Position numbers and translations under genes: made by a program. Below the pieces are notes generated by a model. The model was not told the origin of the DNA and did no database searches. It worked only from the letters and a program-made list of their open reading frames with translations. Of a stretch of DNA of 64,000 nucleotides, positions 4,171 through 64,000 are shown piece by piece. The DNA lies in NCBI GenBank assembly GCA_016869765.1, contig VGES01000002.1:59964-123963 (forward strand), given 5' to 3'. Origin of the DNA: Alphaproteobacteria bacterium. GTDB lineage: Bacteria > Pseudomonadota > Alphaproteobacteria > SHVP01. Numbering within the stretch: position 1 is the stretch's first letter; each line of letters starts with the position of its first letter.

Positions 4171-4390
4171 GGATTTCTCCCTCTCGGTCCCGCCGAAACA
4201 GCCCATGCCGGACGCGCCGTGCCGAGCCGCCCCGTGCGGGGTGGTTCAGGCAGCGCTTGGACGGATCGCCGTCTTGGGAAGACCGGGCGGCTGCCGCCAG
4301 CCCGATCGGGGGTACGTTAGCACTCTGCATCGAGCCGCGAAAGGCCCGTCGCCGCGCGGCGCACCGGTGACTCGGCTACACTCGCCGCCC

Positions 4391-11651: not shown

Positions 11652-11736
11652 GAGGAGCTGGCGAAACGGTAGACGCAGCGCATTGCCAGTGCGTGGGGGC
11701 ACCTGTCCCGTAAGGGTTCGAATCCCTTGCTCCTCA
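11652..11736 (+). tRNA. tRNA-like gene with type II (long variable arm) Leu/Tyr-like scaffold but anticodon GCC (Gly); possible noncanonical or pseudo tRNA
   Basis: Manual cloverleaf fold. Acceptor GAGGAGC/GCTCCTC with discriminator A73. 3-bp D stem GCG/CGC with loop AAACGGTAGA (Leu-like). Anticodon stem GCGCA/TGCGT with loop TTGCCAG. 17-nt variable arm. T arm AAGGG-TTCGAAT-CCCTT. No encoded CCA. Not run through tRNAscan. Confidence 0.35.
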
Positions 11737-11873
11737 CACCTCCACGTTCTAGCCTTCGTCGAGGTTCCTCCGAGGGGCGCGACTGGCCGTATCGGGACGA
11801 TTGCCCGCCGCCGCGCCCACTGGCACCACCGATCCCAAGAGCGCCGGCCAAGGCCGAGGAATCGCCCGCGCTC

Positions 11874-26892: not shown

Positions 26893-26979
26893 TGGTGCGG
26901 GTGGAGGGAATCGAACCCCCACTCCCCGAAGGGAACGAGATTTTGAGTCTCGCGCGTCTACCAGTTCCGCCACACCCGC
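26893..26979 (-). tRNA. tRNA-Leu (anticodon CAA), CCA encoded
   Basis: Reverse complement reads GCGGGTG-TG-GCGGAACTGGTAGACGC-G-CGAGA-CTCAAAA-TCTCG-(14-nt variable arm)-GGGGGTTCGATTCCCTC-CACCCGC-A-CCA. Canonical type II Leu cloverleaf. Confidence 0.85.
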
Positions 26980-54450: not shown

Positions 54451-55185
54451 ATGGACCATGCCGTCGTCTCGCGCCGCGAATGGGTGAACGCTCGCAAATC
54501 GCTGCTCGCCAAGGAGAAAGAATTCTCGAAGCAGCGCGACCAGTTGAACGCCGAGCGCCGAGCGCTGCCCTGGGTGCGGCTCGACAAGGACTACGTGTTC
54601 GCAGGCCCGAAGGGCGCGGTGTCGCTTGCCGATCTCTTCGGCACGCACAATCAACTCGTGGTCTATCACTTCATGTTTGGCCCGACGTGGAAGGAGGGCT
54701 GCCCGAGCTGCTCGTTCTGGGCCGACCATTTCGACAGCATGATTCCGCATCTCGCCGCCCGTGACGTCGCATTGGCGGCGGTGTCCCGCGCGCCCTACAA
54801 GCGGTTCGCGCCGTTCAAGAAGCGCATGGGCTGGAAGTTCCCGTGGGTTTCGTCCAACGCCAACGACTTCAATTACGACTTTCAGGTCGCCCATCGCGAG
54901 GGCGAGAAGAAGGAGTACAACTACGCGCCGATGAGCGGCACGATGTCGGAGTTGCCCGGCGCCAGCATGTTCGTGAGAGACGAGTCGGGGGCGATCTACC
55001 ACACCTACTCGTGCTATGCGCGCGGCCTCGACATGCTGAACGGCACCTACCAATTATTGGATACGGTCGCCAAGGGACGCGACGAGGCAGGGTTACCCTG
55101 GGCGATGGCCTGGGTGCGCTACCACGACCGTTACGGCAAAGCGAAACCCGCGAAGAAACCGGCGCGGAAGGCAAAAAAGCGGTAG
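54451..55185 (+). CDS. DUF899 thioredoxin-like family protein with Lys/Ala/Pro-rich C-terminal tail
   Basis: LVVYHFMFGPTWKEGCPSCSFWADHF (DUF899 CxxC). Tail KAKPAKKPARKAKKR. Confidence 0.8.
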   Translation: MDHAVVSRREWVNARKSLLAKEKEFSKQRDQLNAERRALPWVRLDKDYVFAGPKGAVSLADLFGTHNQLVVYHFMFGPTWKEGCPSCSFWADHFDSMIPHLAARDVALAAVSRAPYKRFAPFKKRMGWKFPWVSSNANDFNYDFQVAHREGEKKEYNYAPMSGTMSELPGASMFVRDESGAIYHTYSCYARGLDMLNGTYQLLDTVAKGRDEAGLPWAMAWVRYHDRYGKAKPAKKPARKAKKR

Positions 55186-55201
55186 GGCTGCGATCGCCGT
55201 T

Positions 55202-55537
55202 CTATCGCGCGAATATCTCGGACAAGGCGTGCGCGAGTTGCGTCGTGGTGGGCTCTGTGAGCTTGCCCAGACGGCGCAGGATGCGTGTTCGGTCAACCGC
55301 TCGGAGTTGATCCAGTGCGATTTCACCTCGTTTGCCCTGGAAGCTCACCCCGACGCGGCTTGGAAATGACCGAAGCGCCGTTGTCATGGGTGCCACGATA
55401 ACTGTCCTGAGACTTTCGTTCATCTCGTCGGGCGAAATGATGACGCTTGGTCGCGTCTTCCGTATCTCTGACCCAACGGTCGGATCGAACTGAACCAAGA
55501 CCACGTCGTAGCGACGAAGCGGGTCTACCACCGCCAC
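55202..55537 (-). CDS. mazF: Type II toxin-antitoxin system toxin, PemK/MazF family
   Basis: YDVVLVQFDPTVGSEIRKTRPSVIISPDEMN...VIVAPMTT. Confidence 0.85.
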   Translation of the reverse strand: MAVVDPLRRYDVVLVQFDPTVGSEIRKTRPSVIISPDEMNESLRTVIVAPMTTALRSFPSRVGVSFQGKRGEIALDQLRAVDRTRILRRLGKLTEPTTTQLAHALSEIFAR

Positions 55538-55785
55538 TCGTCATCGTCCCATTCGTTCGACATATCTTCAGGAAACAGCAGCTCCTCTTCGCCCGCACCA
55601 GCCTTCTTGAACGCTTCCCGCCAGCCCGCGCGGACCTTGGTCTCGGCCGAAATCTGGACCGTGCGCCCTTTCACGGTCATCTCCACTCGATCGCCCAGGC
55701 CGCACTGTTCGATGATACTCTTGGGAATTCGCACCCCGCGAGAGTTACCGATCTTGACCAAGGAAGCCTTCATTGCCTTTGTCAT
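55525..55785 (-). CDS. mazE: Type II toxin-antitoxin system antitoxin, AbrB/MazE/SpoVT family
   Basis: MTKAMKASLVKIGNSRGVRIPKSIIEQ swapped-hairpin fold; acidic C-terminus. Overlaps mazF by 13 nt. Confidence 0.8.
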   Translation of the reverse strand: MTKAMKASLVKIGNSRGVRIPKSIIEQCGLGDRVEMTVKGRTVQISAETKVRAGWREAFKKAGAGEEELLFPEDMSNEWDDDEWRW

Positions 55786-55788
55786 GTG

Positions 55789-55801
55789 CTTACAAAGTAA
55801 G
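55789..55801. promoter_or_regulatory. Inverted repeat CTTAC-aaa-GTAAG immediately upstream of mazE (candidate toxin-antitoxin autoregulatory operator)
   Basis: 5-3-5 palindrome 4 nt upstream of the mazE start codon (minus strand). Confidence 0.25.
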
Positions 55802-55989
55802 TACTCCCGAAAACCAGCGCAATACTGTTTTCTGGTGCAAGGCCCCGTTCGTGGCTGACGTAGGAAGGCGAGTCTCTCATGTCCGCGGTCAAGGACTGAA
55901 GGCGTGAATCAGCGATCTGGTTTGGCCCAGACGCTAGTTGATGGCGGTGCACAAGCAGGAGGCAGGGTGTTGGACGTCGGTTGGTGAGG

Positions 55990-56793
55990 CTACTGCTTCG
56001 CCCCGGCGAGGAACGCCTTCAACTCGCTCGCGGGACGGAAGTCCAATGGCCCCCCGAAGTTGATGTAGGCGAGTCCGCCTTCGGGGCTTCGCGCGCGGGT
56101 TTGCAACGTGCCGGGCGGCTTGAAGGTGTAGCAGCCCGCCGTGTACTGCGTGCCATCGGCCAGTGCGATGGCACCCTCCAGGATGAAGGCCTCCTCGTAC
56201 ACCGTATGGAAATGCGACTCGTGGGGGCTGACCCAACCCGGGGCAAAGCGCACGAGCATCGCGCCCTCGCCCGTCTTCGGATCGCGGCTCAGAAGCCGAC
56301 GACTCAGTTGCAGGGCGCCCTTGGCGTCACGCACCTCCTGCCATTCCCCCGCCCGAGCATCGGCCAACACACAGACGCCGCGCATCGGCGAGGATCTGGC
56401 GAGGCTGAACGGTCGCTCCTCGCGAACCGGCTGTTCATAGAAGCAGAAGTCGAGTTCCTTGCTCACCCGCGAGATGAACCAGGACTCGGCACGCACCGCA
56501 CTCCTGAAGCCGTGCACCGTCTCGGCAGGATGGAAGCAATAGGCCATCGACCCGAGCCAATTCTTCGAATCGAACGACAGTTCGCCTTTGAGGACGAACA
56601 GCTCCTCGTCCATGTGGTGATAGTGCGGCTTGTCGGGCGGCGCGTAGCCAAACGCGGGGTCGATCCGCTGCAAGTGGGTCCGTGCGCCGGTCTCGGGGTC
56701 GAACGACAGTTTCTTGGAGAACAGCCCGACCATCGAGTCCTGCGGCTCCCAGGCCATCTTGGTGGTGTCGAGCAACGGAACGTGCGGACGCAT
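55990..56793 (-). CDS. Cupin domain protein (probable bicupin)
   Basis: Two repeats of the HxH...E cupin metal motif (HYHHMDEELFVLKGE and HFHTVYEEAFILEG). Confidence 0.6.
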   Translation of the reverse strand: MRPHVPLLDTTKMAWEPQDSMVGLFSKKLSFDPETGARTHLQRIDPAFGYAPPDKPHYHHMDEELFVLKGELSFDSKNWLGSMAYCFHPAETVHGFRSAVRAESWFISRVSKELDFCFYEQPVREERPFSLARSSPMRGVCVLADARAGEWQEVRDAKGALQLSRRLLSRDPKTGEGAMLVRFAPGWVSPHESHFHTVYEEAFILEGAIALADGTQYTAGCYTFKPPGTLQTRARSPEGGLAYINFGGPLDFRPASELKAFLAGAKQ

Positions 56794-56806
56794 GTGCTTC
56801 CTCCGC

Positions 56807-57685
56807 TCAGGGAATCATCGCCGGGACCCAATGCTCCCAGACGATCTTGCCGAAATCGAGATCCCACGACACATGGGCGTACCAGGCTCGGCCGATCTTC
56901 TTCGGGTTGAGCCGGCACACCGCCGAAAACGACTGCCCCGGCATCTCGCAGAACCCGCGACCCTGCCATATCGAGAACACCTTGAACGAGCCGCCGAGGC
57001 CGTGGTGAATGACCTGCTTCAAGGCGGGACGGTCGCGCTCGGGCATCTGCATCTTGCGCACCGAGAACCAGTTGCCTCCGAACGGCAGGTCGCGGAAGTT
57101 GCCGTGTTTCTCGAGCGTCACGGAGACGCGCAGCAGCGTCTCGCCGCGCCGCGTGATCCTCGACATCGCCTGACTGCCGACCTCCTGAATCTCGTTGTGG
57201 TCACACACGAGCTTGGGGCGGCCGGAGATCTCGCGCGCAGCGATCATCGCTTCGTCGGTCGAGGTCCAGATGTAGGGCGTGAAGCTGCCCGTCTGATTGC
57301 CGAATTTGACCGGCAACACGATCATGCCCTCCTGGAACTTCTGCGATGTCGGCATCTGCCGGTTGTCGCCACAGATCGCGACGCCCGGCCGATCGGGGAT
57401 GGCTTCGAGCGGGTAGGGCACGGCGTCAATCATCGCCTGCTGATCGGGCCAGAACTCGACGATGAGCATCTTCGCCGACTCCATCGGATGCGGCGGCTCG
57501 TTGTAGGGCGAGGATAGGAACGGCGCGCTCCAGCCCTCTGGTCGGCGACGTTCGGCATCGGTGGGGATGTAGGTGGGCTCACGCGGCGTGATCTGGGCCG
57601 ACGGCGGGAACACCGGCTTCGGGGCCTTGGACACGGTCTTGCTCGGGCGGCGCTTCGCCGCCGCCGGCTTCTTGTTGCTCGCCAC
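56807..57685 (-). CDS. Hypothetical protein, possibly acetoacetate decarboxylase (ADC)-family-like, with Lys/Pro-rich N-terminal tail
   Basis: N-terminus MASNKKPAAAKRRPSKTVSKAPKPVFPP, then a ~250-aa globular domain. Family assignment is tentative. Confidence 0.35.
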   Translation of the reverse strand: MASNKKPAAAKRRPSKTVSKAPKPVFPPSAQITPREPTYIPTDAERRRPEGWSAPFLSSPYNEPPHPMESAKMLIVEFWPDQQAMIDAVPYPLEAIPDRPGVAICGDNRQMPTSQKFQEGMIVLPVKFGNQTGSFTPYIWTSTDEAMIAAREISGRPKLVCDHNEIQEVGSQAMSRITRRGETLLRVSVTLEKHGNFRDLPFGGNWFSVRKMQMPERDRPALKQVIHHGLGGSFKVFSIWQGRGFCEMPGQSFSAVCRLNPKKIGRAWYAHVSWDLDFGKIVWEHWVPAMIP

Positions 57686-57758
57686 GATTCCTCCTCAAAG
57701 AAGACGGAACTCTATCGCCGATGGTCCAAGTGGGAAACCGCACGATCCCGTGGAAAAC

Positions 57759-57767
57759 TCGTGGATA
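57759..57767. promoter_or_regulatory. DnaA-box-like element (CGTGGATAA = reverse complement TTATCCACG, 8/9 to TTATCCACA) in the nrdJ 5' region, with GGATAAC direct repeat
   Basis: Pattern match only. Adjacent second copy GGGATAACC and an inverted repeat CCGGG-ataa-CCCGG. Confidence 0.3.
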
Positions 57768-57963
57768 ACTCCGGGATAACCCGGGGACAAAGGGGGGACG
57801 GCGAGTCCGCGATCCCGGGCATTCTCACGCCTCGATTCTGGACATCGGGGACAACAGAAATTCTCTCATCTGCTCAAATGCTTGCCTGTCGGCGATTTGT
57901 GAACGGAACAGGAACATTGCTGGCGCTGGTCGCCATCCTTAGAATGCGCGCTCCCTGAACGAC

Positions 57964-60900
57964 ATGCCCATGCACGCGCTCGCGCCAATCTCCCAGCAGA
58001 TCTGGGACATGAAGTATCGCCTCAAGGGGCCCGACGGAGCCCCCGTCGACGGCAGCATCATCGACACGTGGCGCCGCGTCGCGCGCGCCCTCGCGGCCGT
58101 CGAAAAAGGGTCGGCCCATTGGGAAGGGCGCTTCGCCGAGGCTCTCGCCGATTTCAAGTTCCTGCCCGCGGGACGGATCATTGCCGGTGCCGGAACCGAT
58201 CGTCGCGTCACGCTGTTCAACTGTTTCGTCATGGGCACGATCCAGGACGACATGGCGAGCATCTTCGAGAACCTCAAAGAAGCCGCGCTCACCATGCAGC
58301 AAGGAGGCGGCATCGGATTCGATTTCTCGACTCTGCGGCCGAAGGGCGCCCCGGTGCGTGGCGTCGGCGCGGATGCGTCGGGGCCGTTGTCGTTCATGGA
58401 TGTCTGGGACGCGATGTGCCGGACCATCATGTCCGCCGGCCATCGCCGCGGTGCCATGATGGCGACGCTGCGTTGCGATCATCCCGACATCGAGGCGTTC
58501 ATCGAAGCCAAGCGCGAGCCAGGCCGGCTGCGCATGTTCAATCTGTCGGTCCTCGTGAGCGATGCATTCATGGCCGCGGTCAAGGCCGATCAACCGTGGA
58601 CCCTGTCGTTCAAGGACGTCACCTATAAGACGCTGTCGGCGCGCGAACTGTGGGACAAGATCATGCGCGCGACCTACGGCTACGCCGAGCCGGGCGTGAT
58701 CTTCATCGACCGCATCAACCGTCTCAACAACCTCGCCTACGCCGAAACGATCAGCGCGACCAATCCTTGCGTGCCGGCCGATACCTGGGTGCAGACGACG
58801 GAGGGGCCCCGCCAGGTCGGTGAACTCATGGGGCGCCCGTTCGGTGCTGTCGTCGACGGTGTGGCCGCCGCCAGCGACGAGCGCGGCTTCTTCGCGACCG
58901 GTCGACGAAAGGTGCTGCGGCTGTCGACGGACGAAGGTTATGTGTTGCGTCTCACGGACAACCACCAAGTACGAATCGTCGCCGAACGCACCCGCGATCG
59001 CCAGACCTACGCGTGGATCGCCGCCGGGGACCTTCGCCCGGGGCAGCAGGTCGTCGTGCACGACCACCGCGAGGCTGCGACCTGGGCCGGGCAGGGCGAC
59101 GCCGATCAGGGCTATCTCCTCGGCCTGCTGATCGGCGATGGCACGCTCAAGGACGACAAGGCGGTGCTGTCGGCCTGGCCGGGCCTCCTGGTCGCAAACG
59201 GCACCTTCGAACGGCCGGGCATTGCCGGCGTCATGGATGCGGCCTTGGCGGCGGCGAGACAGCAGCCCCACCGCGCCGATTTCAAAGGTTGGATGGCCGT
59301 CCCCGGTCGTGGGGAATACCGGCTCGCGCTCGCCGCGGTCAAACACATGGCGGAACGCCTCGGGCTCGAGCCAGGACACAAGACCATTACCCCGGCAATC
59401 GAGCGTTGCTCGGCGGCGTTCTACCGCGGCTTCCTCCGCGGCCTGTTCGATGCCGATGGCAGCGTGCAAGGCAATCATGAGAAAGGCGTCAGCGTCCGAC
59501 TGGCCCAGAGTGATCCAGCCCTCCTGCGGGCTGCGCAACGAATGCTGCTGCGCCTCGGGATTTGCTCGCGCCTCTACGCCGAACGCCAACCGAGCGGGCT
59601 TCGCCCGATGCCTGATGGCAAAGGGGGAACGGCAATCTACCCCCATGCGGCCCAGCACGAACTCGTCATCAGCGGTGACAATCTCGCCGTGTTCGCCGAT
59701 CGCATCGGTTTCGCCGACACGGAGAAATCGGCGCGATTGACGGTCTGTCTCGGCCAATACCGGCGGGCGCTGAACCGCGAACGCTTTGTCGCCACCGTGG
59801 CCACCGTCGAGAACGACGGCGAAGAGGACGTGTTCGATGTCGCGATCCCCGGCATCAATGCGTTCGATGCCAACGGGCTCTACGTCCACAACTGCGGCGA
59901 GCAGCCGTTGCCTCCGTACGGGGCCTGCCTGCTGGGCTCGATCAACCTGGCGCAACTCGTGCGCCAACCGTTCACGAACGAGGCGGCACTCGACGAAACA
60001 GCCCTCGACGAACTTACCGGCCTCGCCGTACGGATGCTCGACAATGCGATCAGCGTCTCGCGATTTCCCCTGCCCGCCCAGGAACACGAAGCGCAGGCAA
60101 AACGGCGCATCGGGCTCGGGATCACGGGCTTGGCCGACGCCCTCATCATGGCCGGCCAGCGCTATGGCAGCGCGGAGGCCGTCGAAACGACGCGTCGCTG
60201 GCTGGCCCGGCTGCGGCGGGCGGCGTATCTCGCGTCGGCCGAACTCGCAGCCGAGAAAGGCGCTTTCCCGCTGTTCGATCGCGATCGCTATCTGGCTGGC
60301 GAAAACGTCCAACGCCTGGAAGACGACGTGCGCGACGCGATCGCCGCCAAGGGCATTCGCAACGCCCTTCTCACTTCGGTGGCCCCCACCGGCACCATCT
60401 CGCTCCTCGCCGACAACGTGTCCTCCGGCCTCGAACCGGTGTTCTCGTTCGTTTACAAGCGCAACGTGCTGATGCCGGACGGCAGCCGCAAGGAAGAGGA
60501 GGTCAGCGACCACGCCTATCGGCTGTTCCGCCGATCCGCCGGCGAGAACACCGCACTTCCCCCCGCCTTCGTCGATGCCCAACACCTGACCCCGGGCGAT
60601 CACGTGCGTATGCAGGCCGCGGTCCAGGAGTTCATCGATTCGGCGGTGTCCAAGACCGTGAACATCCCCGAGGACATGTCTTTCGCCGCGTTCAAGGACG
60701 TCTACATGTTGGCCTACGACACCGGCTGCAAGGGCATCACGACCTATCGCCCGAACCCGGTGACCGGCGCCGTGCTCGAAACCAAGACGGCCAAATCGAC
60801 CAAGCAGACCGAGCTGCCGTTCGAAAAGCCGGCCGCGCGGCCCGCCGATGCCTACGAGGCGGGCGGCGTTGTCTACATGACCAAGCCCTTGGATCGCCCC

Positions 60901-61413
60901 GGCGTGCTGCCCGGCAGCACCTACAAGGTGCGCTGGCCCGAGTCCGATCACGCGATCTACATCACGATCAACGACATCATTCAGGACAGCCGACGCCGGC
61001 CCTTCGAGGTGTTCATCAACTCGAAGAACATGGAGCACTACGCCTGGACGGTGGCATTGACACGCATGATATCGGCCGTGTTCCGCCGTGGCGGCGACGT
61101 CTCGTTCGTCGTCGAGGAACTCAAGGCGGTGTTCGACCCGCGCGGCGGCCACTGGGTCGACGGCCACTACGTACCGTCGCTCCTGGCCGCGATCGGCGAT
61201 GTCATCGAGCAGCATTTGGTCTCGATCGGCTTCATGGCCGCGCCCCACGGTCAGGAACACCAGGCTGTGGAACTGCGCCAGGCGGCGGGGATGGAAGAGA
61301 CGGGGCCCGGCGCCATGCGCCTGCGCCATTGCCCGCGCTGCAACCAGCCGGCACTGATCCGGCTGGAAAACTGCGACACCTGTACGAGCTGCGGCTACTC
61401 GAAGTGCACGTGA
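57964..61413 (+). CDS. nrdJ: Class II (adenosylcobalamin-dependent) ribonucleotide reductase NrdJ, interrupted in-frame by a 375-aa intein
   Basis: Extein sequence ...ETISATNP-C|GEQPLPPYGACLLGSINL restores the canonical NrdJ active-site block. C-terminal Cys-rich zinc ribbon CPRCNQ...CDTCTSCGYSKC. Mature size ~774 aa. Confidence 0.9.
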   Translation: MPMHALAPISQQIWDMKYRLKGPDGAPVDGSIIDTWRRVARALAAVEKGSAHWEGRFAEALADFKFLPAGRIIAGAGTDRRVTLFNCFVMGTIQDDMASIFENLKEAALTMQQGGGIGFDFSTLRPKGAPVRGVGADASGPLSFMDVWDAMCRTIMSAGHRRGAMMATLRCDHPDIEAFIEAKREPGRLRMFNLSVLVSDAFMAAVKADQPWTLSFKDVTYKTLSARELWDKIMRATYGYAEPGVIFIDRINRLNNLAYAETISATNPCVPADTWVQTTEGPRQVGELMGRPFGAVVDGVAAASDERGFFATGRRKVLRLSTDEGYVLRLTDNHQVRIVAERTRDRQTYAWIAAGDLRPGQQVVVHDHREAATWAGQGDADQGYLLGLLIGDGTLKDDKAVLSAWPGLLVANGTFERPGIAGVMDAALAAARQQPHRADFKGWMAVPGRGEYRLALAAVKHMAERLGLEPGHKTITPAIERCSAAFYRGFLRGLFDADGSVQGNHEKGVSVRLAQSDPALLRAAQRMLLRLGICSRLYAERQPSGLRPMPDGKGGTAIYPHAAQHELVISGDNLAVFADRIGFADTEKSARLTVCLGQYRRALNRERFVATVATVENDGEEDVFDVAIPGINAFDANGLYVHNCGEQPLPPYGACLLGSINLAQLVRQPFTNEAALDETALDELTGLAVRMLDNAISVSRFPLPAQEHEAQAKRRIGLGITGLADALIMAGQRYGSAEAVETTRRWLARLRRAAYLASAELAAEKGAFPLFDRDRYLAGENVQRLEDDVRDAIAAKGIRNALLTSVAPTGTISLLADNVSSGLEPVFSFVYKRNVLMPDGSRKEEEVSDHAYRLFRRSAGENTALPPAFVDAQHLTPGDHVRMQAAVQEFIDSAVSKTVNIPEDMSFAAFKDVYMLAYDTGCKGITTYRPNPVTGAVLETKTAKSTKQTELPFEKPAARPADAYEAGGVVYMTKPLDRPGVLPGSTYKVRWPESDHAIYITINDIIQDSRRRPFEVFINSKNMEHYAWTVALTRMISAVFRRGGDVSFVVEELKAVFDPRGGHWVDGHYVPSLLAAIGDVIEQHLVSIGFMAAPHGQEHQAVELRQAAGMEETGPGAMRLRHCPRCNQPALIRLENCDTCTSCGYSKCT
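58768..59892 (+). mobile_element. Intein (Hint domain plus LAGLIDADG homing endonuclease domain) inserted in nrdJ
   Basis: Starts with Cys (CVPADTWVQT...). Ends ...LYVHN followed by the +1 Cys. Two LAGLIDADG-type blocks (YLLGLLIGDGTL and GFLRGLFDADGSV). Length 375 aa, in frame. Confidence 0.8.
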
Positions 61414-61426
61414 GCGCGTTAGCGAC

Positions 61427-61981
61427 CTAACGCTCGGTCACCAGTTTCGCAAGCCGGTGGAGTCGCGGATCGCGGATTCCCAACTCGTCGAGATGCGCGA
61501 TGGTGTTCGCGAGGTAATCGCGGTTGGTGCCGGACTTTCCCATGGCGCCGCGCACGATTTCGGCGATCCGTTCCGGCCGAAGTTTTCCGGCGTAGTGCGG
61601 GTGATCGCGGTTGACCACGAAGCACGCCGCCGTGACCGATCGCTCATCGAGCGCGACCGGCAACCACTTGAGCCGATAGACCTCCACGGGATGCCCGAAC
61701 ATCTCCCGCTCGATCAAATAGGTGAGCGTGGTTTCGGCCGCCGCGGGACCGACACGAAACACGCGGCCGTGACATGAACCGCCGCGATCCAGGCCGAGAA
61801 CGAGGCCCCGGCGTTCCGGCGTCCCGCGGTAATGCTCGGAATAGAGGCAAAAGGCGCGATGGTACCCACGCAGCCGGGCCGGTGCGGCTGTGATGAAGGG
61901 AAACCCCGGGTTCCACATCAAGGACCCGTAGCCGAACACCCAGAGGTCGCCGTTTGCGTCGGTCTTCATCTGCGTCGCCAC
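61427..61981 (-). CDS. chaC: Gamma-glutamylcyclotransferase, ChaC family
   Basis: LWVFGYGSLMWNPGF (ChaC/GGCT YGSL motif)...184 aa. Confidence 0.8.
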   Translation of the reverse strand: MATQMKTDANGDLWVFGYGSLMWNPGFPFITAAPARLRGYHRAFCLYSEHYRGTPERRGLVLGLDRGGSCHGRVFRVGPAAAETTLTYLIEREMFGHPVEVYRLKWLPVALDERSVTAACFVVNRDHPHYAGKLRPERIAEIVRGAMGKSGTNRDYLANTIAHLDELGIRDPRLHRLAKLVTER

Positions 61982-62055
61982 GCCATAGCCGGAGGAGCGC
62001 CCGCGCTGCTATAGAGTAGCGCCATGGCCTATCGCAACAGGCGGCAGGGCGGCTG

Positions 62056-63162
62056 GTGACCCAACCGGCGCTCGACGCGGCGGTCCTCGAGCCCACGACC
62101 CCGCGGCGACGGTCGCGCTGGCGTTGGCTGATGCTCGCCGCAGGCCTGATCGTGATCGCCCTGGCCGCCGGCTGGACCGTACTGTGGTACACCCTGGCGC
62201 GCGACGTCGAACGGGTGGTCGACGATTGGGTCGCGGCCCGACGGACCGAAGGATATTTCATCGTCCTCGGGGCGCCCCACGTCAGCGGCTTTCCGTTCCG
62301 GTTGACGCTCCGGTTCGAGCTTCCGGTCGCCGCCTTGCGCGGCAGCAGCACGCTCTCCTGGCATGCCGACTGGATCGAGGCCTCGGCTCCGTTGTGGGCG
62401 CCGCAACAGATTCGCGTGCGCGTGCCCCGCAATCTCTTCACCTATTCGGTGCGCGGCGCCTCACGCGATATCCAGGTGATCAGCGAAGCGGCCCGTTTCG
62501 ATGTCACGGCCAACGGGTCCGGGCGGCCGGAAACCGCGGTGATCGCCTTGGCGCAGCCGCGCCTGCACATGAACCTGCTGGCACAGCCGATCGCCGCCCG
62601 GGACCTCGAGATCGCGCTCACCTGGCCGCAGCTGTTGCCGGGCGAACCGTTCCCGCGCGCGGCTGTTTCGCTCGCCGCCAGCGAAGTCACGTCGGCCCTG
62701 CCTCACTTCGCTGCTATCGGGCGAACCATTCAATCGCTTCGCGGCAACGTCGTCTTCCGCGGCACGTGGGACAATCAGGACTGGCGACGCGCCCTGGTCG
62801 CCTGGCGCGACAACGGCGGCACCATCGACCTTCAGGGTCTGCGCCTCGAGTGGGGCAACCTCAAGGTCGACGGCGATGGCACAGCGGCCCTCGATCGCGA
62901 ACTGCGGCCGATCGGTGCCGGGGCGCTCTGGGTGCTGGGGCTCCCCGAATTCATCGACAGCTTGCAGCGCCTGGGCGTCGTCAATGCGCGCGGAGCCGCC
63001 CTGTTCAAGCTCGCGCTCAGCGCGATGCCATCCAACGGCGGGAAGACCCAATTGCCGATTTCGGCCCAGGACGGGCGACTCTATCTCGGTCCGGTGGCCG
63101 TGGCCCCGCTGTGGTCGCTCGATTCGTTCTCGCTCGACGGCGTCCTGCGGCCGACGAACTAG
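62056..63162 (+). CDS. DUF2125 domain protein (alphaproteobacterial conserved, N-terminal transmembrane anchor)
   Basis: RRRSRWRWLMLAAGLIVIALAAGWTVLWY transmembrane segment, then a ~330-aa periplasmic domain. Confidence 0.65.
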   Translation: MTQPALDAAVLEPTTPRRRSRWRWLMLAAGLIVIALAAGWTVLWYTLARDVERVVDDWVAARRTEGYFIVLGAPHVSGFPFRLTLRFELPVAALRGSSTLSWHADWIEASAPLWAPQQIRVRVPRNLFTYSVRGASRDIQVISEAARFDVTANGSGRPETAVIALAQPRLHMNLLAQPIAARDLEIALTWPQLLPGEPFPRAAVSLAASEVTSALPHFAAIGRTIQSLRGNVVFRGTWDNQDWRRALVAWRDNGGTIDLQGLRLEWGNLKVDGDGTAALDRELRPIGAGALWVLGLPEFIDSLQRLGVVNARGAALFKLALSAMPSNGGKTQLPISAQDGRLYLGPVAVAPLWSLDSFSLDGVLRPTN

Positions 63163-64000
63163 CGCGCCTTCTTCTGGTCCTCGGGATCGGCCTGGCCGGC
63201 ATCGATGATGCCGCGGCGGATCGCCCTGGTTCGCGCGAAGAACTCTTCGAGCGTCCGGCCGTCACCCGACCGGATGGCGCGCGTCAGAACCGCGAGGTCC
63301 TCGTTGAAGCGACCGAGCATTTCCAGCACCGCCTCGCGGTTATTCAGGAAGACGTCGCGCCACATGATCGGGTCGGATGCCGCGATGCGCGTGAAGTCGC
63401 GAAACCCGCCAGCCGCGTATTTGATGACCTCGCCCTCGGTGACGCTCTCGAGGTCCTTAGCCGTCCCGACGATGTTGTAGGCGATCAGGTGCGGCAGGTG
63501 TGAGGTGATTGCCAGCACGAGATCATGGTGGGCCGGTTCCATCACGTCGACCCTGCTGCCCAAGCGCCGCCAAAACCCGATCAGGCGTTCGACCGCTTCG
63601 GGCCTCGCCGAGGCGGTTGGTGTGACGATGCACCAGCGCTCTTCGAACAACTCGGCGAATCCCGCGTCAGGGCCCGAGTGTTCGGTTCCAGCGACCGGAT
63701 GCGCCGGGACGAAGTCGACCCCGGCGGGGATATGCGGCCCGATATCGCGCACGACCGCCGCCTTGACCGAGCCCACGTCGGTCAACGTCGCCCCAGGTTT
63801 CAGCGCCGGGCCGATCACTCGACCCAGTTCGGCAAAAGTTCCGACCGGTGTTCCCAACACCACCAGGTCCGCATCGCGAACGGCTTCGGCCGGATCGGCG
63901 TACGTTCGCTCGACGAGATCGAGTTCGGTGGCGCGTCGCCGCGTCGCCTCGGACTTGGCACACGCAACGATCGAACGGGCGAGGCCGTGACGTTTGATCG
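63159..64000 (-). CDS. tyrC: Prephenate/arogenate (cyclohexadienyl) dehydrogenase, partial (N-terminus beyond window end)
   Basis: ...DLVVLGTPVGTFAELG...VDFVPAHPVAGTEHSGPDAGF...; the reading frame continues open past 63863 to 64000. Confidence 0.8.
   Translation of the reverse strand, partial: IKRHGLARSIVACAKSEATRRRATELDLVERTYADPAEAVRDADLVVLGTPVGTFAELGRVIGPALKPGATLTDVGSVKAAVVRDIGPHIPAGVDFVPAHPVAGTEHSGPDAGFAELFEERWCIVTPTASARPEAVERLIGFWRRLGSRVDVMEPAHHDLVLAITSHLPHLIAYNIVGTAKDLESVTEGEVIKYAAGGFRDFTRIAASDPIMWRDVFLNNREAVLEMLGRFNEDLAVLTRAIRSGDGRTLEEFFARTRAIRRGIIDAGQADPEDQKKAR

What the first reader, a model, noticed from the sequence alone, without database searches (positions are those of the whole stretch)
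58768..59892. Large LAGLIDADG intein inserted at the catalytic NPC|GEQ block of class II RNR (nrdJ)
The 1149-aa nrdJ ORF contains a 375-aa in-frame insertion exactly between the conserved ...SATNP and CGEQPLPPYGAC blocks (the active-site Cys region). The insert begins with Cys, ends with His-Asn and is followed by Cys(+1), the canonical class 1 intein splice junctions. It carries two LAGLIDADG-like blocks (LLGLLIGDGTL, FLRGLFDADGSV), so it appears to be a full-size intein with a possibly active homing endonuclease. RNR active sites are known intein hotspots. The essential reductase here therefore depends on protein splicing, and the element is a selfish mobile feature worth checking for endonuclease integrity.
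Basis: partly seen in the sequence, partly recalled or inferred. Interest (0 to 1): 0.7.

Follow-up and report, generated by a model that had tools for sequence, protein, structure and literature searches.

The report
Homing-endonuclease intein in NrdJ active site
The B12-dependent ribonucleotide reductase gene is interrupted, right before its catalytic cysteine, by a complete self-splicing intein carrying a homing endonuclease; this is real, but it is an ordinary member of the commonest known class of reductase inteins.

Summary
The nrdJ ORF (57964..61413, +, 1149 aa) carries a 375-codon in-frame insert at 58768..59892. Two syntenic orthologs (89% and 85% extein identity) lack exactly these 1125 bp.

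The insert has the expected intein and endonuclease features:
- Cys1, block B T-x-x-H, and a terminal His-Asn followed by Cys+1.
- Two LAGLIDADG motifs, both with their catalytic Asp.
- An AlphaFold model (pLDDT 94) whose best PDB matches are the endonuclease-bearing inteins TliVMA, PI-PfuI and PI-SceI.

Cys+1 aligns with the cysteine of the conserved NPCGE loop of T. maritima NrdJ. From my own knowledge that is the thiyl-radical cysteine, so the enzyme should need splicing to work.

The kind is well known. The literature calls this exact point the most frequent insertion site of contiguous inteins in class I/II reductases. The insert's family has 638 representative clusters (E<=1e-30), nearly all at the same NP|C site, including many viral contigs.

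The distribution is patchy, and across bacterial classes intein divergence does not track host-gene divergence. In close relatives the endonuclease domain is under purifying selection (dN/dS about 0.1-0.2).

Verdict: a new member of a known kind, low interest. Splicing and cleavage activity are inferred, not shown.

The parts
57964..61413 (+). nrdJ precursor ORF (1149 aa plus stop). The real start may be the ATG at 57970, as in the orthologs and in the database copy P0001.
   Evidence: NCBIfam TIGR02504 NrdJ_Z scores 562 bits against a cut-off of 400.
57964..58767 (+). N-extein (ORF aa 1-268), ending ...ETISATNP.
   Evidence: It aligns without a gap to T. maritima NrdJ once the insert is removed.
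58768..59892 (+). Intein, 375 aa.
   Evidence: Single 1125-bp indel against the empty-site orthologs L001 and L002. Pfam and NCBIfam hits. AlphaFold model with pLDDT 94.2. Foldseek matches to TliVMA, PI-PfuI and PI-SceI inteins.
58768..58770 (+). Cys1, the block A splicing nucleophile.
   Evidence: Invariant in 121 of 121 homologs.
58768..59082 (+). N-terminal part of the Hint splicing domain (intein aa 1 to about 105). The boundary is approximate and taken from the model.
   Evidence: Beta-rich secondary structure in the model. Weak TIGR01445, PF14890 and PF01079 hits.
58954..58965 (+). Block B T-D-N-H (Thr63...His66).
   Evidence: Thr in 49 of 50 and His in 49 of 50 diverse relatives.
59083..59772 (+). 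LAGLIDADG (dodecapeptide) homing-endonuclease domain (intein aa about 106-335). Boundaries are approximate.
   Evidence: PF14528 E=1e-25. Helices 112-124 and 216-230 in the model. Foldseek matches to I-DmoI and I-Tsp061I.
59116..59142 (+). LAGLIDADG motif 1, LLGLLIGDG. The catalytic Asp124 codon is 59137..59139.
   Evidence: Asp or Glu in 48 of 50 relatives. GDG is at least 99% conserved in the 120 closest homologs.
59434..59460 (+). LAGLIDADG motif 2, LRGLFDADG. The catalytic Asp230 codon is 59455..59457.
   Evidence: Asp in 50 of 50 relatives.
59773..59892 (+). C-terminal part of the Hint domain with blocks F and G (...VFDVAIPGINAFDANGLYVHN). The terminal His-Asn is at 59887..59892.
   Evidence: It aligns to the C-terminus of the DnaB mini-intein 4o1r. 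His-Asn is invariant in 121 of 121 homologs.
59893..59895 (+). Cys+1, the first C-extein residue. It serves as the splice-junction nucleophile and, by homology, is the cysteine of the NPCGE active-site loop.
   Evidence: It aligns with position 322 of the T. maritima NrdJ chain, in TNPCGE. Invariant in 121 of 121 homologs. Its role as the thiyl-radical residue comes from my own knowledge and from PMC2677866.
59893..61413 (+). C-extein: the rest of the reductase barrel, the TSCPD domain and a Cys-rich tail, plus the stop codon.

Best explanation
This is a full-size, class-1-type intein with an embedded double-motif LAGLIDADG homing endonuclease. It is inserted in frame in the class II (B12-dependent) ribonucleotide reductase gene nrdJ, between Pro268 and the cysteine of the conserved NPCGE active-site loop.

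Proposed mechanism:
1. The gene is translated as a precursor of roughly 126 kDa (rough size estimate), in which the catalytic loop is split by 375 residues.
2. The Hint domain then splices itself out. The steps are an N-S acyl shift at Cys1, trans-thioesterification to Cys+1, cyclisation of Asn375 assisted by His374, and an S-N shift.
3. This releases a 774-aa NrdJ with a contiguous ...TNP-CGEQ... loop, plus a free intein of roughly 41 kDa.
4. At the DNA level the free intein would act as a homing endonuclease. It would cut insert-free nrdJ alleles at the highly conserved sequence spanning the insertion point. Repair from the intein-bearing copy would then spread the element.

Shown here: the anatomy, the exact empty site, the conserved residues, the fold, the family-wide use of the same site, the patchy distribution, the cross-class decoupling from host divergence, and purifying selection on the endonuclease domain in relatives. 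Inferred: that splicing and DNA cleavage actually occur in this organism.
For: - **Exact indel.** There is a single 1125-bp indel against two orthologs with identical gene neighbourhoods: ADC, nrdJ, ChaC, DUF2125, PDH.
- **Continuous extein.** The spliced-out sequence aligns without a gap across TNPCGE with T. maritima NrdJ 1xjk. NrdJ_Z resumes at residue 644 at profile position 282.
- **Splice residues.** Cys1, His-Asn and Cys+1 are invariant in 121 of 121 homologs. Block B T63-x-x-H66 is kept in 49 of 50 relatives.
- **Endonuclease signature.** LAGLIDADG_3 scores E=1e-25. Asp124 is Asp or Glu in 48 of 50 relatives, and Asp230 is Asp in 50 of 50.
- **Fold.** The model has pLDDT 94.2 and pTM 0.92. 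Its top Foldseek matches are TliVMA intein (E=4e-19), PI-PfuI, PI-SceI and PI-TkoII, followed by I-DmoI.
- **Family and site.** 638 representative clusters match at E<=1e-30, and nearly all of the 150 best sit at xNP|C...HN|C(G/A/S)E. The same holds for about 60 of 80 viral contigs.
- **Mobility signature.** The nearest exteins (89.6%, 85.6%, about 79% identity) are intein-free, while the nearest intein-bearing extein is 77.7% identical. At least 29 state changes are needed on a 238-taxon NJ tree. Intein identity stays at 55-62% while extein identity ranges from 43% to 83% across Alpha-, Beta- and Gammaproteobacterial hosts.
- **Selection.** The endonuclease domain has dN/dS of 0.11-0.18 in close pairs, similar to the Hint domain and the exteins.
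[quoted passage not shown] PMC4760082 counts 211 bacterial reductase inteins.
Against: - The profile models of the splicing domain fall just below their curated cut-offs: PF14890 at 27-31 bits against 35.8, and TIGR01445 at 22.8 against 24.5.
- No experiment shows splicing or cleavage.
- The closest known intein is only about 65% identical. No very recent transfer is visible among the 120 closest intein-bearing homologs, and no co-conversion tract is visible next to the insert. Current mobility of this particular copy is therefore unproven.
- Gain in this lineage cannot be told apart from ancestral presence with repeated precise loss in its sisters.
Confidence: 0.93

Rival explanations
1. The intein still splices, because it must for NrdJ to function, but its endonuclease is no longer active. 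On this view the element is an immobile resident that is inherited vertically and occasionally lost.
For: The window's intein is 57-66% identical to every other sampled intein, which indicates a long isolated lineage. There is no co-conversion tract in the flanks. Among the 120 intein-bearing homologs, no pair has a near-identical intein in diverged exteins. The ratio of intein to extein divergence among Alphaproteobacterial hosts is compatible with old vertical descent plus losses.
Against: Both catalytic Asp residues and both motifs are intact. All 120 closest homologs keep a full-length endonuclease domain, which is conserved about as well as the splicing domain: 30% against 27-42% of columns are at least 95% conserved. 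dN/dS of the domain is 0.11-0.18 in close pairs, so it is not decaying. Cross-class decoupling and dS excesses in Halomonas pairs point to real transfers within the family.
Confidence: 0.25
2. The intein has been co-opted as a post-translational switch. Splicing, and therefore reductase activity, would respond to redox state or another signal, for example through a Cys1-Cys+1 disulfide. That benefit, not homing, would explain its retention.
For: The position at the catalytic cysteine means the precursor should be inactive until it is spliced. Both junction nucleophiles are cysteines. The intein is retained at full length across many Alphaproteobacteria. PMC4760082 argues in general that intein clustering suggests functional importance, and PMC4513877 describes condition-dependent splicing for a RadA intein.
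Against: No data here bear on conditional splicing. The closest orthologs do without the intein in the same genomic context. Purifying selection on the endonuclease domain fits selfish homing better than a switch would. The distribution is very patchy.
Confidence: 0.07
3. The 375-aa segment is a lineage-specific NrdJ domain, or an assembly or annotation artefact, and not an intein.
For: None beyond the fact that Pfam Intein_splicing is below its gathering score.
Against: The same sequence occurs on independent contigs from two other metagenome sources at 99.9% nucleotide identity. The empty-site orthologs, the junction residues, the fold and the LAGLIDADG hits all contradict this reading.
Confidence: 0.01

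Closest known systems
Contiguous reductase inteins inserted directly N-terminal to the thiyl-radical cysteine of class I/II ribonucleotide reductases. This is the InBase 'RIR1' allele that PMC2677866 describes as the most frequent reductase insertion point. It may correspond to the 'rir1-b' allele of PMC4071816, but I did not verify that.
   Same: The insertion point is the same (xNP|C-x-E) and the architecture is the same (Hint domain plus double LAGLIDADG). Sequence homology is clear: 35-66% identity to hundreds of relatives at that site.
   Different: The differences are sequence divergence (the nearest relative is about 65% identical) and the host lineage. The host is an uncultured alphaproteobacterium whose nearest NrdJ relatives lack the intein.
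NCBI-annotated 'intein-containing adenosylcobalamin-dependent ribonucleoside-diphosphate reductase' and 'LAGLIDADG family homing endonuclease' NrdJ proteins of Rhodospirillales-like Alphaproteobacteria. Examples are P0003, and P0034 (Iodidimonas), P0073 (Oceanibaculum) and P0077 (Telmatospirillum).
   Same: They have the same host protein, the same site, the same length (about 1140-1180 aa) and the same Pfam architecture. Overall identity is 67-71%.
   Different: Their inteins are 57-66% identical to this one. Their exteins are more distant (at most 78%) than those of the intein-free sisters of the window's gene.
The structurally characterised LAGLIDADG inteins PI-SceI (yeast VMA1 intein), PI-PfuI (Pyrococcus furiosus), the TliVMA and PhoVMA inteins, and PI-TkoII.
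   Same: They share the two-domain Hint plus LAGLIDADG fold: Foldseek E=4e-19 to 2e-09, probability 1.0, TM about 0.55-0.64. The splice-junction chemistry is the same kind (Cys1 ... His-Asn / Cys+1).
   Different: Sequence identity is only 11-15%. The hosts and target sites differ. This intein is smaller (375 aa) than PI-SceI, PI-PfuI (chains of 405-454 aa) and PI-TkoII (537 aa).
The bnrdE intein of Bacillus prophage SPbeta (class Ib NrdE).
   Same: It is a reductase large-subunit intein with a homing-endonuclease domain, carried by a phage. It was detected by tblastn over 87% of the query.
   Different: Identity is only 24%, and the host is a class Ib reductase of Firmicutes phages. I did not check its insertion site.
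The NrdJ-1 split intein from metagenomic 'fractured genes' (PMC2677866).
   Same: It lies in the same host enzyme class and in the same active-site loop.
   Different: It is inserted one residue further downstream (NPC|S). It is split into two genes with a free-standing endonuclease gene between them, and it has no LAGLIDADG domain inside the intein. A few contiguous relatives of the window's intein also use that shifted site (P0268, P0298, P0380).

Membership tests
Intein (class 1, Hint-fold protein-splicing element) | An in-frame insertion in a conserved host protein that is absent from orthologs (an empty-site allele exists). | tested here: met
   The syntenic orthologs L001 and L002 lack exactly nt 58768..59892. 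About 118 insert-free homologs of 763-795 aa were found.
Intein (class 1, Hint-fold protein-splicing element) | Block A: Cys or Ser as the first residue. | tested here: met
   Cys1 at 58768..58770. Invariant in 121 of 121 homologs.
Intein (class 1, Hint-fold protein-splicing element) | Block B T-x-x-H motif. | tested here: met
   T63-D-N-H66 at 58954..58965. Each residue is conserved in 49 of 50 relatives.
Intein (class 1, Hint-fold protein-splicing element) | Block G: penultimate His, terminal Asn, then Cys, Ser or Thr at +1. | tested here: met
   ...VHN|C at 59887..59895. Invariant in 121 of 121 homologs.
Intein (class 1, Hint-fold protein-splicing element) | Hint fold. | tested here: met
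   The model has pLDDT 94.2. Full-length structural matches to the PI-SceI, PI-PfuI and TliVMA inteins, and a match to the GyrA mini-intein 1am2.
Intein (class 1, Hint-fold protein-splicing element) | Curated profile models of the splicing domain pass their cut-offs. | tested here: inconclusive
   PF14890 scores 27.3-30.9 bits against 35.8. PF01079 scores 20.6-21.9 against 29.7. TIGR01445 scores 22.8 against 24.5. All have significant E-values (down to 2.7e-07) but fall below the curated scores.
Intein (class 1, Hint-fold protein-splicing element) | Autocatalytic excision with ligation of the exteins. | not testable with these tools
   This needs expression with Western blot or mass spectrometry. 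It is inferred from the intact residues and from conservation of the interrupted host gene.
LAGLIDADG homing endonuclease (double-motif, monomeric, intein-borne) | The Pfam LAGLIDADG family model scores above its gathering score. | tested here: met
   PF14528 LAGLIDADG_3 scores 89.8 bits against 22.5, E=1.3e-25.
LAGLIDADG homing endonuclease (double-motif, monomeric, intein-borne) | Two LAGLIDADG motifs, each ending in a catalytic acidic residue followed by Gly. | tested here: met
   LLGLLIGD124G and LRGLFDAD230G. Position 124 is Asp or Glu in 48 of 50 relatives and position 230 is Asp in 50 of 50.
LAGLIDADG homing endonuclease (double-motif, monomeric, intein-borne) | Pseudo-dimeric alpha-beta fold with the two motif helices at the interface. 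| tested here: met
   Helices 112-124 and 216-230 are each followed by beta strands in the model. Foldseek matches I-DmoI and I-Tsp061I with probability 1.0.
LAGLIDADG homing endonuclease (double-motif, monomeric, intein-borne) | Site-specific double-strand cleavage of the insert-free allele. | not testable with these tools
   Indirect support only: family-level dN/dS of 0.11-0.18 for this domain and the patchy, host-decoupled distribution.
Reductase intein allele at the thiyl-radical cysteine | Insertion immediately N-terminal to the cysteine of the N-x-C-x-E loop of a class I or II reductase catalytic subunit. | tested here: met
   The junction is ...TNP|CGEQ.... The Cys aligns with chain position 322 of T. 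maritima NrdJ in TNPCGE. PMC2677866 defines the site.
Reductase intein allele at the thiyl-radical cysteine | Sequence homology to other inteins at the same site (allelic inteins). | tested here: met
   Nearly all of the 150 best representatives (35-63% identity) are flanked by NP|C...HN|C-x-E. The viral copies are likewise.
Class II ribonucleotide reductase NrdJ (host protein) | The equivalog model scores above its cut-off, and the catalytic loop is contiguous after removal of the insert. | tested here: met
   TIGR02504 scores 562 bits against 399.95. The gapless alignment to 1xjk has E=1.7e-78.

The most novel reading that the evidence does not exclude
The intein is kept because it gates reductase maturation, not because it homes. 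Splicing at the Cys1/Cys+1 junction, where Cys+1 is by homology the radical-bearing residue, would respond to redox state or stress. dNTP supply would then be controlled after translation. The intein-free sister lineages would simply have lost this control.
Probability: 0.07. Interest if true: 0.55.

Novelty: new member of a known kind. Interest (0 to 1): 0.15.

Why it matters
The element matters little beyond annotation. The gene should be annotated as an intein-containing NrdJ, not as a 'LAGLIDADG family homing endonuclease', which is the name several database relatives carry. Its mature product is a 774-aa reductase.

The locus is a clean natural trio of one filled site and two empty sites in conserved synteny. 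It could serve as a test substrate for the endonuclease and for studies of the homing cycle in uncultured Alphaproteobacteria.

The intein might also be screened as a protein-engineering tool, since it is a Cys/Cys-junction intein from a mesophile. Nothing about it challenges current understanding.

Tried and rejected
- **Co-conversion tract.** Sliding-window DNA identity of the window against L001 and L002 is average around the junction (0.83-0.89). The dips elsewhere are shared by the L001-L002 comparison. No tract was detected.
- **RNA elements or signals.** I looked in or near the insert and upstream of nrdJ. Rfam at E<=0.1 over 55000..64000 found nothing. There are no promoter-like sites, and terminator-like sites are at background level.
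- **Carriers in reference collections.** Cultured phages and plasmids hold only remote relatives: the SPbeta bnrdE intein at 24% and a Miltoncostaea megaplasmid at 29%. Only the uncultured viral set gave good relatives.
- **Gain versus loss in this lineage.** This stays unresolved. The NJ tree and the identities allow either a gain from an unsampled donor or ancestral presence with precise losses.
- **dN/dS for the window's own intein.** Synonymous sites are saturated against every relative that has DNA (dS 1.4-2.1). The near-identical copies L003 and L004 carry almost no differences. Selection could therefore be measured only in relatives.
- **Compositional foreignness.** The intein's GC3 is 0.789, against 0.808-0.869 for every extein window of equal size. 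This is suggestive but too small to be decisive.
- **'Conserved NrdJ domain' hypothesis.** Rejected.
- **Second intein or reductase paralog.** None was found in the 64-kb window.
Full report
**1. The observation**

The window contains a 1149-codon ORF at 57964..61413 on the + strand. Residues 269-643 (nt 58768..59892, 375 aa) lie between ...ETISATNP and CGEQPLPPYGAC.... The segment begins with Cys, ends with His-Asn and is followed by Cys. The coordinates given in the finding are exact.

**2. It is an insertion, not a domain of NrdJ**

- NCBIfam's NrdJ equivalog model (TIGR02504) scores 562 bits against a cut-off of 400. It matches in two stretches, the second resuming at residue 644 at profile position 282.
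- With the 375 residues removed, the protein aligns without interruption to the T. maritima NrdJ crystal-structure sequence across TNPCGE (E=1.7e-78).
- A search with the spliced sequence found about 118 homologs of 763-795 aa that lack the segment. The closest are 89%, 85% and about 79% identical.
- The contigs of the two closest (L001, from a JGI metagenome, and L002, an Alphaproteobacteria MAG, GCA_009694165.1) have the same gene order as the window: ADC-family gene, nrdJ, ChaC, DUF2125, prephenate dehydrogenase.
- A DNA alignment of these alleles shows one 1125-bp indel at exactly 58768..59892. This is the classical pair of a filled site and an empty site.
- Two independent metagenome contigs (L003, L004) carry the filled allele at 99.9% nucleotide identity, which excludes an assembly artefact.

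**3. What the insert is**

- Pfam gives LAGLIDADG_3 at E=1e-25. It also gives weaker Intein_splicing and Hint hits. These are significant by E-value but fall below Pfam's gathering scores. TIGR01445 (intein N-terminal region) is likewise just under its cut-off.
- Sequence search of the PDB finds only the C-terminal F/G blocks of a DnaB mini-intein.
- The motif evidence is complete: Cys1, block B T63-D-N-H66, block F/G ...VFDVAIPGINAFDANGLYVHN, and Cys+1.
- In 120 full-length homologs, Cys1, His-Asn and Cys+1 are invariant.
- In a more diverse 50-sequence alignment, the block B Thr and His are each kept in 49 of 50. The first catalytic acidic residue (Asp124) is Asp or Glu in 48 of 50, and the second (Asp230) is Asp in 50 of 50.
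- An AlphaFold2 model built on that alignment is very confident, with pLDDT 94.2 and pTM 0.92.
- Its best PDB matches are exactly the endonuclease-bearing inteins: TliVMA (E=4e-19), PI-PfuI, PI-SceI and PI-TkoII. These are followed by the free-standing monomeric LAGLIDADG enzymes I-Tsp061I and I-DmoI, and by mini-inteins such as the GyrA intein.
- The insert is therefore a two-domain intein, Hint plus double-motif LAGLIDADG.

**4. Where it sits**

Cys+1 aligns with position 322 of the T. maritima chain, in the N-P-C-G-E loop. From my own knowledge this is the thiyl-radical cysteine, flanked by the catalytic Asn and Glu. Dassa et al. [quoted passage not shown] Novikova et al. (PMC4760082) counted 211 reductase inteins in bacteria, the second most invaded bacterial protein in their survey. 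The site is thus a textbook one.

**5. The family**

- An exhaustive HMMER search of 1.84 billion representatives with the insert alone gave 2795 hits at E<=0.001 and 638 at E<=1e-30.
- In nearly all of the 150 best, the match is flanked by xNP|C...HN|C(G/A/S/V)E. This holds in reductase backbones of very different lengths, and some matched proteins show three or four matched stretches.
- A handful use a site one residue downstream (NPC|S), which is the point reported for the NrdJ-1 split intein (PMC2677866).
- In named genomes, relatives occur in Alphaproteobacteria (Dongia, Ferrovibrio, Rhodospirillales MAGs), Gammaproteobacteria (Halomonas, Thiohalobacter, Wenzhouxiangella, Competibacteraceae) and Betaproteobacteria (Burkholderiales). 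More distant relatives occur in Parcubacteria and Dehalococcoidia.
- Cultured phage and plasmid collections hold only remote relatives, such as the SPbeta bnrdE intein at 24%.
- The IMG/VR viral contigs hold at least 198 relatives, up to 49% identical and full length, and most are at the same site. Viral reductase genes are therefore plausible vehicles for spread.

**6. Is it behaving as a mobile element?**

Four lines of evidence bear on this.

(a) *Patchiness.* On the extein alignment, the 28 nearest relatives of the window's NrdJ are all intein-free. The nearest intein-bearing one is 77.7% identical, against 89.6% for the sister. An NJ tree of 238 exteins needs at least 29 gains or losses. 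That tree is unbootstrapped and the sample is biased, so the number should be read as 'tens'.

(b) *Decoupling.* Intein identity to the window stays at 55-62% whether the host extein is 67-83% identical (Alphaproteobacteria) or 42-63% identical (Gamma- and Betaproteobacteria). In the gammaproteobacterial hosts the intein is more similar than the C-extein. Within the 120 alphaproteobacterial intein-bearing homologs, intein and extein distances correlate only weakly (Spearman 0.20, Mantel p=0.001).

(c) *Selection.* In pairs close enough for synonymous sites to be informative, the endonuclease domain has dN/dS of 0.11-0.18. This is similar to the Hint domain (0.05-0.17) and the exteins (0.03-0.15). 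All 120 closest homologs keep a full-length endonuclease domain, conserved about as well as the splicing domain. The domain is being maintained, not decaying.

(d) *Allele replacement.* In some Halomonas pairs the intein's dS is 3-4 times that of the flanking exteins (for example L010-L013: 0.8-1.2 against 0.18-0.28). In others the two are equal (L014-L015). This suggests that intein alleles are occasionally replaced.

Several points argue against current mobility of this particular copy. Its nearest sampled intein is only about 65% identical. No co-conversion tract is visible. Its GC3 is only slightly lower than that of the host gene, 0.789 against 0.808-0.869. Whether this lineage gained the intein from an unsampled donor, or kept an ancestral one that its sisters lost precisely, cannot be decided from these data.

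**7. Mechanism**

The mechanism in the best explanation follows standard intein chemistry, which is established knowledge. It comprises an acyl shift at Cys1, transfer to Cys+1, Asn375 cyclisation helped by His374, and rearrangement to a peptide bond that restores ...TNP-CGEQ.... Because the insert splits the catalytic loop at the cysteine that by homology carries the radical, the precursor should be inactive. A working NrdJ therefore implies splicing. The strong conservation of the exteins indicates that the gene is functional. The excised intein is predicted to cut empty nrdJ alleles at the conserved sequence spanning the junction and to spread through repair. Splicing and cleavage are inferred, not demonstrated. 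Whether NrdJ is the only reductase of this organism cannot be told from 64 kb. No other reductase or intein is present in the window.

**8. Verdict**

The element belongs to the commonest known class of reductase inteins. NCBI already names close relatives 'intein-containing adenosylcobalamin-dependent ribonucleoside-diphosphate reductase'. An identical protein is already in public metagenome collections (P0001). It is a new member of a known kind and of low interest. The most novel reading that is not excluded is conditional splicing as a switch on dNTP synthesis, which has no specific support here.

A more unusual thing surfaced outside the window. This is a family of free-standing proteins of about 374 aa, clearly derived from this intein family, sitting in a non-reductase context in Syntrophorhabdales-like genomes. 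It is listed under things noticed in passing.

Noticed in passing
L027:5001-6125, L028:5001-6125, L029:3721-4845 (outside the window; proteins P0462, P0468, P0469, P0473, P0474, P0479, P0480, P0482, P0483, P0490, P0334): This is a family of free-standing proteins of 372-390 aa, 42-44% identical to the window's intein over its full length. Their N-termini (MGEIxA(S/T)N(Q/H)(S/G/C)VT...) keep a vestige of the reductase N-extein (GEIxATNP|CVT). Cys1 is often replaced by Ser or Gly, and they stop 0-5 residues after ...VHN. Motif 1 has Glu in place of Asp, and motif 2 is intact. In L027-L029 the gene lies 4 nt after a 628-aa ORF and 6 nt before a 180-aa ORF. In L028, the locus tested, neither flanking ORF has any Pfam hit, so this is not a fractured reductase gene. 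It looks like an intein that escaped its host gene and became a stand-alone gene, reminiscent of yeast HO.
   Followed up: partly
Proteins P0268, P0298, P0380 (outside the window): A few contiguous relatives of this intein appear to be inserted one residue further downstream (NPC|C...(H/S)N|SE). This is the site previously reported for the NrdJ-1 split intein (PMC2677866), and it suggests site slippage within one intein family. The boundaries were extrapolated from BLAST ends and were not checked by hand.
   Followed up: no
L010, L012-L015, L018 (Halomonas nrdJ loci, outside the window): In several Halomonas species pairs, synonymous divergence of the intein (dS 0.8-1.4) is 3-4 times that of the flanking exteins (0.18-0.45). 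In other pairs the two are equal. This pattern is expected if intein alleles are sometimes replaced by homing or recombination.
   Followed up: partly
Proteins P0239 (1798 aa), P0243 (1621 aa), P0259 (1425 aa) and others (outside the window): These matched proteins show three or four separate stretches related to this intein, so they probably carry several related inteins in one gene.
   Followed up: no
window 57964..57972: There are two in-frame ATG codons (MPMHALAP...). Orthologs and the database copy P0001 start at the second one (57970, MHALAP...), so the annotated start may be 6 nt too far upstream.
   Followed up: partly
window 57874..61329 (-): A 1151-aa ORF runs antisense to the whole of nrdJ. 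It is most likely a stop-codon-poor artefact of the 65% G+C content, not a gene.
   Followed up: no
window 61318..61410: The NrdJ C-terminus, downstream of the TSCPD domain (ORF aa 986-1085), ends in a Cys-rich tail (CPRC...C..C..C....C) that resembles a zinc ribbon.
   Followed up: no
window about 55200..55760, by correspondence with L003:233-792 (not checked directly in the window): A MazE-antitoxin and PemK-toxin gene pair lies a few genes upstream of nrdJ in the near-identical contig L003. It coincides with a dip in G+C to 0.57-0.60 in the window. The upstream neighbours called in the intein-free loci L001 and L002 differ from this, but those flanks were not checked for the pair.
   Followed up: no
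window 4250..4305 (-), 11652..11737 (+), 26893..26979 (-): An Rfam chrB-b cis-regulatory RNA (56 bits against a gathering score of 36.5), a tRNA-Gly(GCC) and a tRNA-Leu(CAA). ARAGORN finds the tRNA-Gly, but Rfam's gathering-score scan does not report it.
   Followed up: no
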